From Mycobacteriales bacterium (GTDB lineage Bacteria > Actinomycetota > Actinomycetes > Mycobacteriales > CADCTP01), in the NCBI GenBank assembly GCA_039648995.1, contig JBBWZH010000045.1:2821-66820 (forward strand): a stretch of DNA of 64,000 nt, read 5' to 3'. A program made the position numbers and the translations under genes. Below are positions 3,153 through 19,952 of the stretch, piece after piece (the first letter of the stretch is position 1; every line of letters begins with the position of its first letter). Under the pieces are notes generated by a model. That model did not search any database, was not told the origin of the DNA, and worked only from the letters and a program-made list of their open reading frames with translations.

Positions 3153-3162
3153 CGATGTTCTC
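3153..3162 (-). promoter_or_regulatory. Site A of the shared motif GAGAACATCG (read on the minus strand), in the divergent promoter region
   Basis: Plus strand CGATGTTCTC at 3153-3162, in an AT-richer intergenic stretch ~205 bp upstream of the oxidase start (2948). See the finding on the four sites. Confidence 0.4.
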
Positions 3163-3208
3163 GCAGTCGCCCCTGGCCACTCTGCCGGATGTGTTATGGA
3201 ATACTTTC

Positions 3209-3237
3209 TTGACAGCCTCACCGGGTCGCCTGAGAAT
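3209..3237 (+). promoter_or_regulatory. Putative sigma70/HrdB-type promoter for the MFS/adenylation operon
   Basis: TTGACA (3209-3214), 17-nt spacer, GAGAAT (3232-3237). The downstream ATG at 3288 has GGAGG at 3279-3283. Confidence 0.35.
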
Positions 3238-3287
3238 CGCGGCGACTGTTGTGGCGCCGCCACTTTCACCTGCCTGCAGGAGGCACC

Positions 3288-4592
3288 ATGTCGGGAAGTT
3301 CCCCGCCAGGTTCCGCAACCGCGGATCGACCTGTGCGAACGCCCGACGACGCGCCGCCCCGACGCAACGAACGACTGCTGATCCTGTTCACCGGCACGAC
3401 GAACACCGCCGACGCGGTGGCCCGGGTTTCCCTCCCGCTGTTGGCCGTCCAGCTCACCCGGTCGCCGGCGCTGATCGCCGGCGTGGCGATCATGATGACG
3501 CTGCCGTGGCTGTTGATCGCGCTGCACGTCGGCGTGCTGGTGGATCGGATGAACCGGCGCAGCCTGATGCTCGGTGCCGAGCTGGCCCGGCTGGTCTCGG
3601 TCGGGGCGCTGCTGGTCGCTGTCGCCGCCGACATGACCAGCCTGGTGCTCCTGTACGCCGTCGCGCTGGCTCTCGGCGTCGCGGAGGTGGTCGCCCAGAT
3701 CGCCGCCGCGTCGATCATCCCCGCCGCGGTCCCGAAATCGCGCTGGCAGAAGGTCACCGCGCGGATGACCGCGACCGAGTACGTCAGCTTCAGCTTCATC
3801 GGCGCGCCGATCGGCGGCTTCCTGGTGGCGGCCGGCTTCACGATCGCGCTCGGCGCGACGGGCCTGGTCTACATCGCCGGCGCCGTGCTGCTCGCGCTGC
3901 TCGTCGGCAACTTCTCGGTGCGGTCCGGCGCGGAACGCCGGCCGGCCCACGTGGAGATCGGCGAAGGCCTGCGGTTCCTCTGGACCAACCAGCTGCTGCG
4001 GGCGATGGCGCTGCTCATCACGATCATGGCCGGCTGCTGGGCGGCCTGGTACGCCATCCTGCCGGGCTACGCGGTCGGCGGGCCGCTGGGGCTCGTCTCG
4101 CGGCAGTACGGTTTTCTGCTCACCAGCCTCGGCGCCGGCGGCGTGATCGGCACGGTGCTCGTCGGGCCGGTCAACCGCCTGCTCGGCCGGCGGTGGTCGA
4201 TGTTCATCGACATCATCGGCACCGTGCTGCTCGTCGGCCTGCCGGCCGCGCTGCCGTCGGCGCCGACGAGCGCATGGGCGATCGGCGCCGCGGCGTTCTT
4301 CGCCGGCGCCGGCGGGACGATGTGGACGGTCAACTCCCGGGTCATCATCCAGTCGCTGGTGCCCAACGAGCTGCTCGGCCGGTTCAGCGCCGCCAGCCGT
4401 CTCATCGCCTGGGGGATGACCCCGGTGGCGGCCGCGATCGCCGGCGTGCTGGCGCAGCTGTTCAGCTACCGGCTGGCGTTCGGCGTGTTCGCGGTCATCT
4501 GCGCGCTGCTGGTCTACCCGTTCCTGCGGGTGATCACCGTCGAAGCGCTGGCGCCGGTCGACCGCCCTGAGCCGGCGGAGGTCACCGCGTGA
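3288..4592 (+). CDS. MFS transporter (EntS/siderophore-exporter-like), probable product exporter
   Basis: ORF 3249..4592 with its start moved to the ATG at 3288 behind the GGAGG. About 12 hydrophobic segments and the MFS loop motif GVLVDRMNRR. Confidence 0.85.
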   Translation: MSGSSPPGSATADRPVRTPDDAPPRRNERLLILFTGTTNTADAVARVSLPLLAVQLTRSPALIAGVAIMMTLPWLLIALHVGVLVDRMNRRSLMLGAELARLVSVGALLVAVAADMTSLVLLYAVALALGVAEVVAQIAAASIIPAAVPKSRWQKVTARMTATEYVSFSFIGAPIGGFLVAAGFTIALGATGLVYIAGAVLLALLVGNFSVRSGAERRPAHVEIGEGLRFLWTNQLLRAMALLITIMAGCWAAWYAILPGYAVGGPLGLVSRQYGFLLTSLGAGGVIGTVLVGPVNRLLGRRWSMFIDIIGTVLLVGLPAALPSAPTSAWAIGAAAFFAGAGGTMWTVNSRVIIQSLVPNELLGRFSAASRLIAWGMTPVAAAIAGVLAQLFSYRLAFGVFAVICALLVYPFLRVITVEALAPVDRPEPAEVTA

Positions 4593-17478: not shown

Positions 17479-19665
17479 TCATGTACTGCCGATGTTCTCC
17501 GGATTCACCTCGGCTGTGGCACCTTTCCCGGCCGGGCGGCGGGCGGCCGGTCCGAACCCTTCCGACCGGTCGGCTCTCGCCACCGAGCCGCCCTCCCACA
17601 ATGCCCAGCGCAATTCGTCGACGGCTTTCCGCAGCAGGTCGCCGTCATCCCGGTCGGCCAGCGAGCGCAGGGTGCCGAGCTCCCGGCGGTACCAGGCGGA
17701 TACGGCCGCCGCCGACCCGGACCCGGACGCCCGGCGCACCAGCCCGATGCGGTCCCGGACCAGCCCGAGGTAGTGCTCGATCACCCGCCGCACCCCGGCG
17801 GCGGGGTCGACCGCGGCGTCCTGCTGCTCCCGGGCGACCAGGCGCACCAGGTCGGGCACCCGGTACAGGTCCAGCCGCAGCGCGTCGACCAGCCCCGAGT
17901 CGACCAGCCGCTCGACCACCGGGTGCGCCGCGTGCTCCGGCTCGCCGAGCAGCGCGGCCACCGTGTCCACGCCGACCACCGCGAGGTCCAGCGTGCCGAG
18001 CAGGCACAGCGCGGTGCGGGCCGCCGGGCCGCCGCTGACCCGCTCGAGCTGCCGGACGCTGGCCTGGAGCCGGTCGCGGACGCTCTGCTCGCCGGACGCG
18101 AGCAGGTCCAGCCGGCGGCGCGGGTCGGCCAACCGGTGGGCGAAGTCACCGACCGTCCACTCCGGACGCAGCGCCAGCCGGTTCGCCGCGACGCGCAGCG
18201 CCAGCGGCAGGTACTCGCACAACCGGGCGATGTCGGCCGCGCCGGCCGGGTCGGCGTCGATCCGGCCGGGGGCGAGCGACTCGCGCAGCAGGGCCACCGA
18301 CGCGGCGACCGGCAGGCGGCCGAGGCGGACCTGCCGCCGCGCGCTCACCGCACCGACCGGCGCCCGGCCGGTGACCAGCACCGCGCAGCCCGGCGGCGGG
18401 GCGAGGAAGCCGCGCACCTGATCGGCGTCGGCGATGTCGTCGAGCACGACCAGCACCCGCCGCCCGGCGATCGCGGCCGCCCAGCCGGCCACCGCCCGGC
18501 CGGGGTCGTCGGGGACGTCGCCCGCCGGGTCGTCGGCCCGCAGCAGCGCCCGGGCCGCCTCGGCCGGGCGCACCGGCGACTCGCCCGGCGGTGCCGACGC
18601 ACGCAGGTCCAACCACAGCCGGCCGTCCGGGAAATGCGCCGCGACCGCTCGTGCCGCCTGCCGCGCGAGCGCGGTCTTGCCGGTGCCGGCCGCGCCGTAG
18701 ACCGCGCACACGCCGCCGCGTACCAGCAGGCCGGCGGTCGCGGTCAGCTCGGCAGGACGCTCGACGAACGGCTCGGCGTCCGGCGCGGGCGGCCCCGTGG
18801 CGACGGGCCCCGGCCCCGCCGGGCCAGCCGGCCCGGCCGGGCCGGACCGCGCCGCCGGCGACCGGTCGTCGGCCACCGTCGCGGACAGCAGCGGATCCTC
18901 CCGCAGGATCTGCTGCTGCAGCTCACGCAGCGGCTTGCTGGGCTCGATGCCGAGCTCGTTGACCAGCAGGCGGCGGAGGTCGTGGTAGGCGCCGAGGGCC
19001 TCGGCCTGCTGACCGCACCGGTACAGCGTCAGCATCAGGTGCCCGTGCAGCCGCTCCCGCAGCGGGTACGCCGACACCAGCTGCTTCAGCTCGGGCAACA
19101 GCGTGTCGTGCCGGCCGAGCTGGATCTCGGCCCCGAGCCGGGACTCCAGCACCGCCAGCCGGGACTCCTCCAGCCGCGCCGCCTCGGCCATCACCGCCGG
19201 CGCGGGCGCCACGTCCGACAGCGGCACGCCGCGCCACAGCCCGAGCGCGGCACCGAACGCGTCGGTCGCCGCGGCCACGTCGTTGCCGGCCAGGCCGGCC
19301 CGGCCGGCGGCGACCAGGTCGTCGTACTCGTGCACGTCCAATGCCCCGGGCGGGACGGCGAGCTGGTAGCCCGGCGGCCGGGTGATGAGGACCTCGCCGG
19401 TGCTGTCGCCGAGCAGCCGGCGCAGCCGCCACACGTACCCGGCGAGCAGGCCGGCCGCGCTGGACGGCGGCTGGTCGGTCCACAGCTCCGACACCAGCCG
19501 CTCGGCCGGGACCACCTGGTTCGCGCTCAGCAGCAGCGCCGCGAGCAGGGTGCGTTGCTTGGCCGCACCGATCGGGGACCATCGCCGGCCGTCGAAGAAC
19601 TCGAGGCTGCCCAGGATGCGGAAACGGATCGGCGACGTCCCGGCCATTGGCGTCGTCGTCGACAT
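17479..19665 (-). CDS. SARP-family (AfsR/DnrI/RedD-like) transcriptional activator with BTA and NB-ARC-type ATPase domains
   Basis: 728 aa. N-terminal OmpR-type winged helix starts IRFRILGSLEF. The BTA region includes LRERLHGHLMLTLYRCGQQAEAL. P-loop is VYGAAGTGKTALARQ. Confidence 0.85.
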   Translation of the reverse strand: MSTTTPMAGTSPIRFRILGSLEFFDGRRWSPIGAAKQRTLLAALLLSANQVVPAERLVSELWTDQPPSSAAGLLAGYVWRLRRLLGDSTGEVLITRPPGYQLAVPPGALDVHEYDDLVAAGRAGLAGNDVAAATDAFGAALGLWRGVPLSDVAPAPAVMAEAARLEESRLAVLESRLGAEIQLGRHDTLLPELKQLVSAYPLRERLHGHLMLTLYRCGQQAEALGAYHDLRRLLVNELGIEPSKPLRELQQQILREDPLLSATVADDRSPAARSGPAGPAGPAGPGPVATGPPAPDAEPFVERPAELTATAGLLVRGGVCAVYGAAGTGKTALARQAARAVAAHFPDGRLWLDLRASAPPGESPVRPAEAARALLRADDPAGDVPDDPGRAVAGWAAAIAGRRVLVVLDDIADADQVRGFLAPPPGCAVLVTGRAPVGAVSARRQVRLGRLPVAASVALLRESLAPGRIDADPAGAADIARLCEYLPLALRVAANRLALRPEWTVGDFAHRLADPRRRLDLLASGEQSVRDRLQASVRQLERVSGGPAARTALCLLGTLDLAVVGVDTVAALLGEPEHAAHPVVERLVDSGLVDALRLDLYRVPDLVRLVAREQQDAAVDPAAGVRRVIEHYLGLVRDRIGLVRRASGSGSAAAVSAWYRRELGTLRSLADRDDGDLLRKAVDELRWALWEGGSVARADRSEGFGPAARRPAGKGATAEVNPENIGST
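17490..17499 (-). promoter_or_regulatory. Site B of the shared motif GAGAACATCG
   Basis: Plus strand CGATGTTCTC at 17490-17499, ~85 bp upstream of the ACP start (17405). It overlaps the last codons of the SARP gene. A second ACAT element lies 11 bp downstream (ACATCGGCAGTACATGA in gene orientation). Confidence 0.4.
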
Positions 19666-19698
19666 CTACCCCTCACTCAACGAATAGCGATTGCATTC

Positions 19699-19708
19699 CG
19701 ATGTTCTC
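19699..19708 (-). promoter_or_regulatory. Site C of the shared motif GAGAACATCG
   Basis: Plus strand CGATGTTCTC at 19699-19708, ~35 bp upstream of the SARP start (19665). A CAATCG element lies 11 bp downstream (ACATCGGAATGCAATCG in gene orientation). Confidence 0.4.
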
Positions 19709-19942
19709 CTCAGCACCGGCCCTCCGTCAGGAACCCGGCCGCAACCTGCCCAATGGCGCGGGTCTGGCGCCCGTTCGGGAAGCAGCCGTATTCGGCCAGT
19801 TCGGCTGAATGGCGGACGCCATATGGTCGTCCGGCCGATGTCACACCCGAGCGACTCTGATAACCGCGGATTCCGCGGCGCGTGGCCCGTCACATGTATT
19901 GCCTGACCGGCCGACCCGGCGCGTACAGCGCCGGCGTATCGC

Positions 19943-19952
19943 CAGAACATCG
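19943..19952 (+). promoter_or_regulatory. Site D of the shared motif (CAGAACATCG)
   Basis: Plus strand CAGAACATCG at 19943-19952, ~110 bp upstream of the proB-like ATG (20064). ACATTC lies 11 bp downstream (ACATCGAAAGTACATTC). Confidence 0.4.

What the first reader, a model, noticed from the sequence alone, without database searches (positions are those of the whole stretch)
3153..19952. Shared motif GAGAACATCG, with a second element 11 bp downstream, precedes four transcription units of the cluster
The 10-mer CGATGTTCTC occurs on the plus strand at 3153-3162, 17490-17499 and 19699-19708. Its near-exact reverse complement CAGAACATCG occurs at 19943-19952. In every case the motif reads (G/C)AGAACATCG in the direction of the downstream operon. 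The operons are the oxidase operon (start 2948), the ACP/NRPS operon (start 17405), the SARP gene (start 19665) and proB (start 20064). At three sites a related element starts exactly 11 bp later: ACATCGGCAGTACATGA, ACATCGGAATGCAATCG and ACATCGAAAGTACATTC. The fourth site (ACATCGAAATTCCAACTC) is weaker. The 8-mer core has four A/T positions and should be rare in this genome. I found only two other copies (4198-4205 and 33224-33231), both inside CDSs. SARPs such as DnrI, ActII-ORF4 and AfsR are known to bind direct repeats with 11-bp periodicity near the -35 region. This is therefore a candidate SARP box, and it would include autoregulation.
Basis: partly seen in the sequence, partly recalled or inferred. 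Interest (0 to 1): 0.6.

Follow-up and report, generated by a model that had tools for sequence, protein, structure and literature searches.

The report
Conserved SARP activator box, two promoters
Two of the four flagged sites belong to a 44-bp, four-repeat activator box that is conserved across many actinomycete genera and probably lets the cluster's own SARP regulator switch on the peptide-synthetase and precursor operons; the other two sites are isolated look-alikes with no support.

Summary
The sequence observation is correct. (G/C)AGAACATCG occurs four times (0.09 expected), each copy pointing at a downstream gene.

The four sites are not equivalent.
- **Sites B and D.** B lies upstream of the ACP/NRPS operon and D upstream of proB.
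- **The element.** It has four direct repeats at an 11-bp period (R1 ACAGCG, R2 GyATCG, R3 ACATCG, R4 ACATCG). Exactly 8 bp after R4 comes a -10-like hexamer, RAnnnT.
- **Conservation.** The whole unit is conserved in orthologous clusters of Solihabitans, Kutzneria, Actinocrispum, Nocardia and several metagenomic lineages, inside otherwise diverged intergenic DNA.
- **Specificity.** A weight matrix built only from other genomes scores B at 55.5 bits and D at 54.0 bits in the window; the next best hit is -3. A strict pattern scan of the metagenome collection found the box only in this cluster family, apart from trivial 11-bp microsatellites.
- **Fit to known rules.** The geometry matches the published SARP rules and the position of the AfsR afs box.

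Sites A (upstream of the oxidase operon) and C (upstream of the SARP gene) carry only an R3-like copy. They lack R1, R2 and a -10 at 8 bp, score at background, and are missing from distant orthologues. Autoregulation is therefore unsupported.

Verdict: a new member of a known kind, with moderate interest.

The parts
17479..17517 (-). Box B, upstream of the ACP/NRPS operon. It has four direct repeats at an 11-bp period: R1 ACAGCC (17517-17512), R2 GAATCC (17506-17501), R3 ACATCG (17495-17490) and R4 ACATGA (17484-17479). It overlaps the last 13 codons and the stop codon of the SARP gene.
   Evidence: The sequence is. A matrix built from other genomes scores it 55.5 bits, rank 1 of 127,890 positions. 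Orthologous boxes occur in 9 further lineages.
17465..17470 (-). -10-like hexamer GAGCCT, exactly 8 bp after R4 of box B. The inferred transcription start is near 17458, giving a leader of about 53 nt before the ACP ATG at 17405.
   Evidence: A at position 2 and T at position 6 of this hexamer are invariant in 16 of 16 aligned sites. The transcription start is inferred, not measured.
19925..19963 (+). Box D, upstream of the proB operon. Its repeats are R1 ACAGCG (19925-19930), R2 GTATCG (19936-19941), R3 ACATCG (19947-19952) and R4 ACATTC (19958-19963).
   Evidence: The sequence is. It scores 54.0 bits, rank 2. The box is far better conserved than the rest of the intergenic region: 95% against 74%, 75% against 45%, 70% against 33% and 62% against 29% identity in four comparisons.
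19972..19977 (+). -10-like hexamer AAACAT, 8 bp after R4 of box D. The inferred transcription start is near 19984, giving a leader of about 80 nt before the proB ATG at 20064.
   Evidence: No sigma-70-type -35/-10 pair was found in 19600-20100, as expected for an activator-dependent promoter.
17479..19665 (-). Cluster-situated medium-size SARP of 728 aa, with an OmpR-type Trans_reg_C DNA-binding domain, a BTAD domain and an NB-ARC/P-loop domain. It is the presumed binder of boxes B and D.
   Evidence: Pfam assignments are. The best solved relative is the AfsR SARP domain (E 5e-45). AfsR base-contacting residue R92 is conserved as R80, and T88 is G76 here. An orthologue is present in every cluster with enough context.
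6334..17405 (-). Presumed target operon 1. In order it encodes an ACP, a C-A-T NRPS, a TE/SDR region, two unknown ORFs, an A domain and a C-T-TE protein.
   Evidence: Pfam assignments are. The order is syntenic in L001, L003, L031 and L032.
20064..27068 (+). Presumed target operon 2. It encodes proB, a proA-like aldehyde dehydrogenase, an aminotransferase, LamB/PxpA, PxpB, PxpC and an arginase-family protein.
   Evidence: Pfam assignments are.
3141..3162 (-). Site A, GAGAACATCGAAATTCCAACTC, in the intergenic region between the divergent oxidase and MFS genes. It is an isolated R3-like copy with a decayed R4 and is probably a degenerate partial copy of a D-type box. Its function is doubtful.
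   Evidence: It scores -32 bits with the full matrix and 9.1 bits with the R3+R4 matrix. The sister lineage L026 has GGGAACCTC-AATTCC at this place. Its best local alignment is to box D, with 24 of 31 positions identical; 3.3% of shuffles score as well.
19688..19708 (-). Site C, GAGAACATCGGAATGCAATCG, lying 23-43 bp upstream of the SARP ATG. It has an R3-like copy and a weak second repeat, but no R1 or R2 and no -10 at 8 bp. Its function is doubtful.
   Evidence: It scores -49 bits with the full matrix and 9.0 bits with the R3+R4 matrix. It is kept in L029 (83% SARP identity) with a 16-bp insertion and is absent from L031, L001 and L003.

Best explanation
**What it is.** Boxes B and D are activator-dependent promoters of the cluster's two large operons. 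B drives the ACP/NRPS operon and D drives the proB precursor-supply operon. Each promoter has four phased 11-bp direct repeats:
- R3 and R4 are close to (A/T)ACATCG.
- R1 (ACA-C) and R2 (--ATCG) are conserved partial versions of the same unit.
- A weak -10 (RAnnnT) follows 8 bp after R4.
- There is no usable -35.

**How it most likely works.** By analogy with AfsR at the afsS promoter, protomers of the cluster-encoded SARP-NB-ARC regulator bind side by side on one face of the helix. Given the inferred start sites, R3 and R4 lie at about -40 to -21. Bound there, the SARP would substitute for the -35 contact of the principal sigma factor and recruit RNA polymerase. R1 and R2 probably add cooperative binding of further protomers.

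**Shown versus inferred.**
- Shown: the anatomy, its conservation, its specificity to this cluster family and its co-occurrence with the SARP orthologue.
- Inferred: binding, activation, stoichiometry and transcription start sites.

**Sites A and C.** They are most likely non-functional or at best weak single-repeat look-alikes. A resembles a decayed partial copy of a D-type box. The oxidase operon and the SARP gene are probably controlled by something else.
For: 1. **Motif excess.** There are 4 copies against 0.09 expected.
2. **Four repeats and a -10.** Scanning for ACATCG triplets at an 11-bp period hits only promoter regions in the window and in orthologous loci. The alignment shows four repeats followed at 8 bp by RAnnnT. 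The invariant positions in 16 sites are A-22, A-20, C-18, A-9, ACATC at 0 to 4, ACAT at 11 to 14, A26 and T30 (see also A3).
3. **Independent matrix.** A matrix built from 13 sites in other genomes scores B at 55.5 bits and D at 54.0 bits; the next best hit in the 64 kb is -3.0.
4. **Only two promoter classes.** In 605 kb of held loci, every hit above 5 bits except one weak one falls in two classes: upstream of the ACP/NRPS operon, and upstream of proB or, in Nocardia, of a PhyH dioxygenase gene. The 16 loci that carry only non-orthologous SARPs (30-47% identity) have no hit.
5. **Phylogenetic footprint.** Box D is far better conserved than its flanks.
6. **Metagenome scan.** A strict 20-base pattern found 10 non-trivial matches, all beside proB, C-A-T NRPS or SARP orthologues. 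The other 6 matches were 11-bp microsatellites.
7. **Only conserved regulator.** The SARP is the only regulator shared by all the rearranged cluster versions.
8. **Published rules.** In SARP-dependent promoters the 3' repeat lies 8 bp from the -10, and repeats are 11 or 22 bp apart. The AfsR dimer binds two 11-bp repeats at -40 to -19 (PMC10936776). The afs-box repeat CGTT(T/C)ATCGNN (PMC10972967) resembles GGTACATCGGC here.
9. **No -35/-10 pair.** No sigma-70-type pair was detected around D.
Against: - No binding, footprint, transcription-start or expression data exist for this or any orthologous cluster, so the link between the SARP and the box is by association only.
- The repeat also resembles the PHO-box unit GTTCACC, so another OmpR-type regulator could use the box.
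- Four repeats exceed the two or three described for characterised SARPs.
- R1 and R2 differ from R3 and R4 in a conserved way, so R1 and R2 could have a different partner.
- In the window, box B overlaps coding sequence, which inflates its conservation in close relatives. In distant orthologues the box is intergenic.
- The exact 10- to 12-mer identities of A and C with B and D are improbable by chance (about 0.004 for two extra copies). Some role for A and C cannot be ruled out.
Confidence: 0.75

Rival explanations
1. All four sites, including A and C, are functional SARP sites. On this reading the SARP also activates the oxidase operon and autoregulates its own gene. A and C would act as low-affinity one- or two-repeat sites.
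For: The exact 10-mer GAGAACATCG is shared by A, B and C, and 12-mers are shared by A with D and by B with C. Two extra copies of SAGAACATCG have a chance of about 0.004 given 0.09 expected. Both lie in intergenic DNA and point toward the gene. C has a second repeat, CAATCG, at 11 bp. Two-repeat SARP sites are known (PMC10972967).
Against: - A and C score at background with the R3+R4 matrix: 9.1 and 9.0 bits, against coding-sequence hits of 9-12 bits.
- Neither has a -10 at 8 bp or repeats R1 and R2.
- The core of A is mutated in the sister lineage.
- No orthologous cluster has any box upstream of the oxidase gene or the SARP gene.
- The 5' flank GAGA is not required in other genera, so its identity points to shared descent rather than to binding constraint.
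Confidence: 0.15
2. The boxes are bound mainly by a global OmpR-family regulator, either PhoP or the genome's AfsR orthologue, rather than by the cluster-situated SARP. This would tie the cluster to phosphate or global signalling.
For: The repeat unit GTACATCGGCG resembles both the afs-box repeat CGTT(T/C)ATCGNN (PMC10972967) and the Streptomyces PHO-box core GTTCACC within 11-nt units (PMC4415409). AfsR and PhoP are known to share sites.
Against: - The box was found only inside this cluster family: in 605 kb of loci and in the metagenome scan.
- It always accompanies the orthologous SARP, whatever the gene order.
- It is absent from loci with other SARPs.
- A global regulator's site would be expected at other promoters as well. 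This could not be tested genome-wide here.
Confidence: 0.08
3. The repeats are not a protein-binding element. They would be a chance or compositional pattern, such as a microsatellite remnant or a codon-driven ACATCG.
For: ACATCG alone is frequent in coding sequence, with 50 copies. Box B overlaps coding sequence in the window. Perfect 11-bp microsatellites match the pattern in unrelated metagenomes.
Against: - The differences between repeats are position-specific and conserved.
- The 8-bp distance to the -10 is fixed in 16 of 16 sites.
- The box is conserved in intergenic DNA across genera, while its flanks fall to 29-45% identity.
Confidence: 0.02

Closest known systems
afs box of AfsR at the Streptomyces coelicolor afsS promoter (cryo-EM complexes 8HVR, 8K60, 8JKE; PMC10936776)
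   Same: - The units are 11-bp direct repeats with about 8 conserved and 3 free bases.
- The core sequence is similar: CGTTYATCG against GGTACATCG.
- R3 and R4 would occupy about -40 to -21, as the upstream and downstream afs-box repeats do (-40 to -19).
- The -10 is weak and the -35 is poor.
- The regulator shares the SARP domain (E 5e-45) and also carries an NB-ARC/NOD domain.
   Different: - Here there are four phased repeats rather than two, and the two upstream repeats are conserved partial versions.
- The regulator is a medium SARP without a detected TPR domain.
- It sits in the cluster rather than acting globally.
- AfsR contact residue T88 is G76 here.
- Binding has not been tested.
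Classical small-SARP boxes (ActII-ORF4, DnrI, RedD; heptamers such as TCGAGXX, two or three copies)
   Same: The repeats are direct with an 11-bp period, lie on the same strand as the target gene, overlap the -35 region, and have the 3' repeat 8 bp from the -10 (rule quoted in PMC10936776 and PMC10972967).
   Different: The repeat sequence differs (ACATCG rather than TCGAG), there are four repeats, and the regulator carries an extra NB-ARC domain.
Medium SARPs with NB-ARC (CdaR, CpkO, FdmR1)
   Same: The domain architecture is the same: DNA-binding domain, BTAD and NB-ARC. They are also cluster-situated activators, of NRPS or PKS clusters (PMC10972967).
   Different: The target sites of most medium SARPs are poorly defined. 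FdmR1 is reported to use three heptamers. No four-repeat site is named in the review consulted.
PHO boxes of PhoP (11-nt direct repeat units, core GTTCACC; simple and complex operators)
   Same: The units are 11-nt direct repeats read by an OmpR-type winged helix, operators with several units exist, and the sequence partly resembles GTACATC (PMC4415409).
   Different: PHO boxes are scattered over a regulon. This box is confined to one cluster family and travels with a SARP.

Membership tests
SARP-dependent promoter (SARP box) | Direct repeats on one strand, spaced 11 bp (or 22 bp) apart | tested here: met
   B and D have four repeats at an exact 11-bp period in the window and in all orthologues. 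A has one good repeat, and C has one good and one weak repeat.
SARP-dependent promoter (SARP box) | The 3' repeat lies 8 bp upstream of the -10 hexamer | tested here: met
   For B and D an RAnnnT hexamer starts 8 bp after the R4 hexamer in 16 of 16 sites. The rule is not met at A (CTTCTG) or C (TGAGTG).
SARP-dependent promoter (SARP box) | The repeats overlap or replace a poor -35 element | tested here: met
   No sigma-70-type -35/-10 pair was found in 19600-20100. The hexamers 17 bp upstream of the -10 are ATCGGC and ATCGAA. The transcription starts themselves are inferred.
SARP-dependent promoter (SARP box) | A SARP (OmpR-type DNA-binding domain plus BTAD) is encoded with the targets and co-occurs with the box | tested here: met
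   Pfam finds Trans_reg_C, BTAD and NB-ARC. The orthologue is present in all 11 clusters with enough context, and the box is absent from 16 loci with non-orthologous SARPs.
SARP-dependent promoter (SARP box) | The SARP binds the repeats directly and transcription depends on it | not testable with these tools
   This needs EMSA or footprinting, in vitro transcription or genetics.
Positively autoregulated SARP gene | A functional box in the regulator's own promoter, conserved with the gene | tested here: not met
   Site C scores -49 bits and has the wrong geometry. There is no box upstream of the SARP gene in L001, L003, L031, L032 or L004. In L025 and L028 the SARP gene follows the oxidase-Rieske-methyltransferase-MFS-A genes on one strand.
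PHO box / PhoP operator | 11-nt direct repeat units with core GTTCACC, spread across a phosphate regulon | tested here: inconclusive
   The period and part of the core resemble a PHO box. The distribution seen is restricted to the cluster, but no whole genome could be scanned.

The most novel reading that the evidence does not exclude
The 44-bp, four-repeat architecture may reflect a higher-order assembly. R1 (ACA-C) and R2 (--ATCG) are conserved as different partial copies of R3 and R4 in every lineage and at both promoters. Four protomers of the NB-ARC (STAND/NLR-like) SARP, oligomerised through the nucleotide-binding domain, could line one face of the DNA from about -62 to -21. This would go beyond the two-protomer AfsR model and would tie ATP-driven oligomerisation to promoter occupancy. 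Single-repeat copies such as A and C could then act as weak capture sites.
Probability: 0.25. Interest if true: 0.6.

Novelty: new member of a known kind. Interest (0 to 1): 0.35.

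Why it matters
**A defined target site for a medium SARP.** The result gives a precise, cross-genus cis-element and two predicted target promoters for a medium-size SARP with an NB-ARC domain. 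Few binding sites are known for this class.

**An uncharacterised cluster family.** The cluster combines a nitrosourea-synthase-like (SznF-like) oxidase, a Rieske protein and an arginine-methyltransferase-like enzyme with NRPS genes. It occurs in Pseudonocardiaceae, Nocardia and several uncultured lineages. Knowing the box and the regulator offers a direct route to switching on these silent clusters, by overexpressing the SARP or transplanting the promoters.

**A likely two-tier circuit.** The oxidase operon and the SARP gene appear to lie outside the SARP regulon, while the NRPS and precursor operons lie inside it.

**A test case for stoichiometry.** The four-repeat layout allows a test of how many SARP protomers load at a promoter.

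Tried and rejected
1. **A and C as full sites.** The full 56-nt matrix and the 21-nt R3+R4 matrix both place them at background.
2. **Conserved element upstream of the oxidase gene.** Aligning six orthologous upstream regions shows no shared block. The closest relative has a mutated core at A.
3. **A promoter geometry for C.** I tried a leaderless start and an alternative -10 (TATTCG). Neither reproduces the 8-bp rule, and a 16-bp tandem duplication in L029 changes the spacing.
4. **A second shared motif.** CCCGAASGGGCG lies upstream of both the oxidase gene and the SARP gene: 2 exact copies against 0.08 expected. It is kept only in the sister lineage, however, and it is not the best local alignment between the two regions. 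I kept it only as a note.
5. **A structured proB leader.** The fold is no better than shuffled sequence, z = -0.26.
6. **Naming the product through the literature.** The chalkophomycin and SznF genome-mining paper (PMC10849742) does not describe this cluster or its regulator.
7. **A genome-wide scan.** This was not possible.

Full report
**1. The observation**

The pattern SAGAACATCG occurs exactly four times in the 64-kb window, at 3153-3162(-), 17490-17499(-), 19699-19708(-) and 19943-19952(+). Dinucleotide-preserving shuffles predict 0.09 copies. So is the second element 11 bp downstream:
- A: CCAACT;
- B: ACATGA;
- C: CAATCG;
- D: ACATTC.

Three corrections are needed.
- The bare hexamer ACATCG is common in coding sequence, with 50 copies.
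- Site B is not intergenic. It lies inside the 3' end of the SARP gene, and the TGA stop codon is part of the second element.

**2. Context**

The window has 75% G+C. Its oxidase protein is 100% identical to a protein from a 71.9-kb contig of a metagenome-assembled genome labelled 'Mycobacteriales bacterium'. Genes were called from third-position GC content and assigned by Pfam.

| Coordinates | Strand | Genes |
|---|---|---|
| 131-2948 | - | methyltransferase like a protein-arginine methyltransferase, Rieske protein, haem-oxygenase-like di-iron oxidase (sources name it 'nitrosourea synthase', i.e. SznF-like) |
| 3249-6259 | + | MFS transporter and a stand-alone A domain |
| 6334-17405 | - | ACP, C-A-T NRPS, TE/SDR region, two unknown ORFs, A domain, C-T-TE |
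| 17479-19665 | - | 728-aa SARP (Trans_reg_C, BTAD, NB-ARC) |
| 20064-27068 | + | proB, proA-like dehydrogenase, aminotransferase, PxpA, PxpB, PxpC, arginase-family protein |

**3. Orthologous clusters**

- A genome scan with the SARP found syntenic clusters in Solihabitans fulvus (L001), a Kutzneria MAG (L003) and Actinocrispum (L002). Three Nocardia species (L004-L006) carry rearranged versions. Sixteen further loci carry only non-orthologous SARPs.
- Protein look-ups added L023-L032. These include a sister lineage (L026 and L029, from one sample; oxidase 87% and SARP 83% identical) and Kutzneria albida (L028).

**4. What B and D really are**

In L001 and L003 the regions upstream of the ACP gene and of proB carry three to four (A/T)CATCG units at an 11-bp period.

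A scan for three ACATCG units at 11-bp spacing (at least 14 of 18 matches) hit only promoter regions, in the window and in all related loci.
- R1: ACAGCG or ACACCG;
- R2: GTATCG, GCATCG or GAATCC;
- R3: ACATCG;
- R4: (T)ACATCG;
- then exactly 8 bp;
- then RAnnnT (GAGCCT, GATTCT, GATGCT, AAGTAT, AAACAT, GAGCAT, GACGAT, AAACCT).

In 16 sites from about 10 lineages the invariant positions, counted from the A of R3, are A-22, A-20, C-18, A-9, ACATC at 0 to 4, ACAT at 11 to 14, A26 and T30. Nothing upstream of R1 is conserved.

R1, R2 and the -10 were missed.

**5. Specificity**

- *Independent matrix.* A 56-nt weight matrix built from 13 sites in other genomes, with no window sequence, scores B at 55.5 bits and D at 54.0 bits. 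The next best of 127,890 positions scores -3.0. A scores -32 (rank 417) and C scores -49 (rank 6857).
- *All held loci.* Over the 605 kb held, every hit above 5 bits except one weak one (18.5 bits, in L004) falls in one of two classes. One class is the ACP/NRPS promoter. The other is the proB promoter or, in Nocardia, the promoter of a PhyH-family dioxygenase gene. None occurs in the 16 loci with non-orthologous SARPs.
- *Footprint.* Box D is far better conserved than the rest of the proB-SARP intergenic region: 95% against 74% in L029, 75% against 45% in L031, 70% against 33% in L001 and 62% against 29% in L003.
- *Metagenome scan.* A strict 20-base version of the box gave 16 matches in the metagenome collection. 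Ten lie in high-GC contigs beside proB, C-A-T NRPS or SARP orthologues. Six are perfect 11-bp microsatellites. In L035 and L041 the two boxes sit back to back, 25 bp apart, between divergent ACP and proB genes.

**6. Mechanism**

The published rule for SARP-dependent promoters has two parts: the 3' repeat lies 8 bp from the -10, and repeats are 11 or 22 bp apart. In the AfsR cryo-EM structure two SARP protomers bind two 11-bp repeats at -40 to -19 and take over the role of the -35 contact with sigma region 4 (PMC10936776).

If transcription starts about 7 nt after the RAnnnT hexamer, R3 and R4 lie at about -40 to -21. That is the same position as the afs box. The afs-box repeat CGTT(T/C)ATCGNN (PMC10972967) is also close to GGTACATCGGC here. 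No sigma-70-type -35/-10 pair is detectable around D.

The SARP's N-terminal region matches the AfsR SARP domain (E 5e-45). AfsR base-contact residue R92 is conserved, and T88 is replaced by glycine. The SARP is the only regulator shared by all cluster versions.

I therefore infer that the cluster SARP binds R3 and R4, and probably R1 and R2 cooperatively, and activates the NRPS and proB operons. Binding, activation, stoichiometry and start sites are all inferred.

**7. Sites A and C**

*Geometry and scores.*
- Neither site has R1 or R2, and neither has a -10 at 8 bp.
- With an R3+R4-only matrix they score 9.1 and 9.0 bits. Chance hits inside coding sequence reach the same level: 10.6 bits at 2377, 9.1 at 28218 and 11.8 at 48048.

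*Conservation of A.*
- In the sister lineage L026 the flanks of A align, but the core reads GGGAACCTC-AATTCC.
- Six oxidase-upstream regions share no conserved block.

*Conservation of C.*
- C is retained as GAGAACATCt in L029, with a 16-bp tandem duplication just downstream.
- It is absent from L031, L001 and L003.

*Gene order.*
- In K. albida the oxidase, Rieske, methyltransferase, MFS, A-domain and SARP genes run in one co-directional row. In L025 the same row is interrupted by a 314-bp gap before the A-SARP pair. This arrangement argues against a dedicated autoregulated SARP promoter as a family feature.

*What remains unexplained.*
- The exact 10- to 12-mer identities (A with D: AGAACATCGAAA; B with C: GGAGAACATCGG) are unlikely by chance.
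- The best local alignment between the two intergenic regions is A against D, with 24 of 31 positions identical; 3.3% of shuffles score as well.
- The 5' flank and the spacer are not constrained in other genera. Shared descent is therefore the simplest explanation: A looks like a decaying partial copy of a D-type box.
- A weak function cannot be excluded.

**8. Rivals**

- *Global regulator.* The box could be used by PhoP or AfsR. The PHO-box core is GTTCACC within 11-nt units (PMC4415409). The cluster-restricted distribution argues against this, but no full genome could be scanned.
- *Chance or composition.* This explanation is excluded.

**9. Verdict**

Autoregulation is not supported.
- This is a new member of a known kind of element. 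The four-repeat layout with conserved partial upstream repeats, for an NB-ARC SARP, is mildly unusual.
- Interest is moderate.

Noticed in passing
window 131-27068: This is an uncharacterised biosynthetic cluster family. It combines an SznF-like ('nitrosourea synthase') di-iron oxidase, a Rieske protein and an arginine-methyltransferase-like enzyme with NRPS genes (ACP, C-A-T, A, C-T-TE). A proB, proA, aminotransferase, 5-oxoprolinase (PxpABC) and arginase operon completes it. The family is conserved, with rearrangements, in Solihabitans, Kutzneria, Labedaea, Actinocrispum, Nocardia and many metagenomic contigs. I found no paper describing its product.
   Followed up: partly
window 17479-17517: The whole box B lies inside the last 13 codons of the SARP gene, and the SARP stop codon TGA is part of repeat R4 (ACATGA). 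The promoter of the next operon is therefore embedded in the regulator's own coding sequence. In distant orthologues the same box is intergenic.
   Followed up: partly
window 3209-3237 (+): A near-consensus sigma-70-type promoter, TTGACA-17 bp-GAGAAT (10 of 12 matches), lies upstream of the MFS/A-domain operon. Its -35 is conserved as GTCAAGAA on the opposite strand in L023 and L026. The true MFS start is probably the ATG near 3287, preceded by GGAGG, rather than the TTG at 3249.
   Followed up: partly
window 3087-3117 (-) and 19768-19779 (-): The 12-mer CCCGAASGGGCG occurs exactly twice (0.08 expected), upstream of the oxidase gene and upstream of the SARP gene. Upstream of the oxidase gene it is half of an inverted repeat, CGTTCGGG-N11-CCCGAAGG, which is a perfect 10-bp repeat in sister locus L026 (2535-2565). 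It might be the operator of another regulator shared by these two units. It is not conserved in distant orthologues and is weak by a local-alignment test.
   Followed up: partly
L029 1225-1283: In the sister lineage a 16-bp tandem duplication (GCAATCAATACTCGTC / GCAATCAGTACTCGTT) sits between the site C equivalent and the SARP start codon. It creates a TTGACG next to the motif.
   Followed up: no
L035 13431-13561 and L041 5033-5161: In two metagenomic versions of the cluster the B-type and D-type boxes are back to back, 25 bp apart, in one short divergent region between the ACP/NRPS and proB operons. No SARP gene lies between them.
   Followed up: partly
L004 635-680, L005, L006: In Nocardia the second box does not drive proB. 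It drives a PhyH-family (phytanoyl-CoA dioxygenase-like) gene, so the same cis-element has been recruited to a different tailoring or precursor gene.
   Followed up: partly
window 27218-36391 (-): A four-gene system next to the cluster resembles type II Wadjet (JetABCD-like) plasmid defence: DUF2397, an SMC/SbcC-like ATPase of 1408 aa, and a DUF3323+DUF2399 protein.
   Followed up: no
window 37163-49949: A type VII secretion-like neighbourhood. It encodes a protein with weak WXG100 and T7SS-signal matches, an FHA-FtsK/SpoIIIE (EccC-like) ATPase of 1464 aa, an HTH protein with a peptidoglycan-binding domain, and a Ser/Thr kinase with a peptidoglycan-binding domain.
   Followed up: no
window 19836-19841 (-): A further ACATCG (GTGTGACATCGGCCGGAC) lies in the proB-SARP intergenic region. 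It is kept in L029 but is not in phase with any other repeat, and its meaning is unknown.
   Followed up: no
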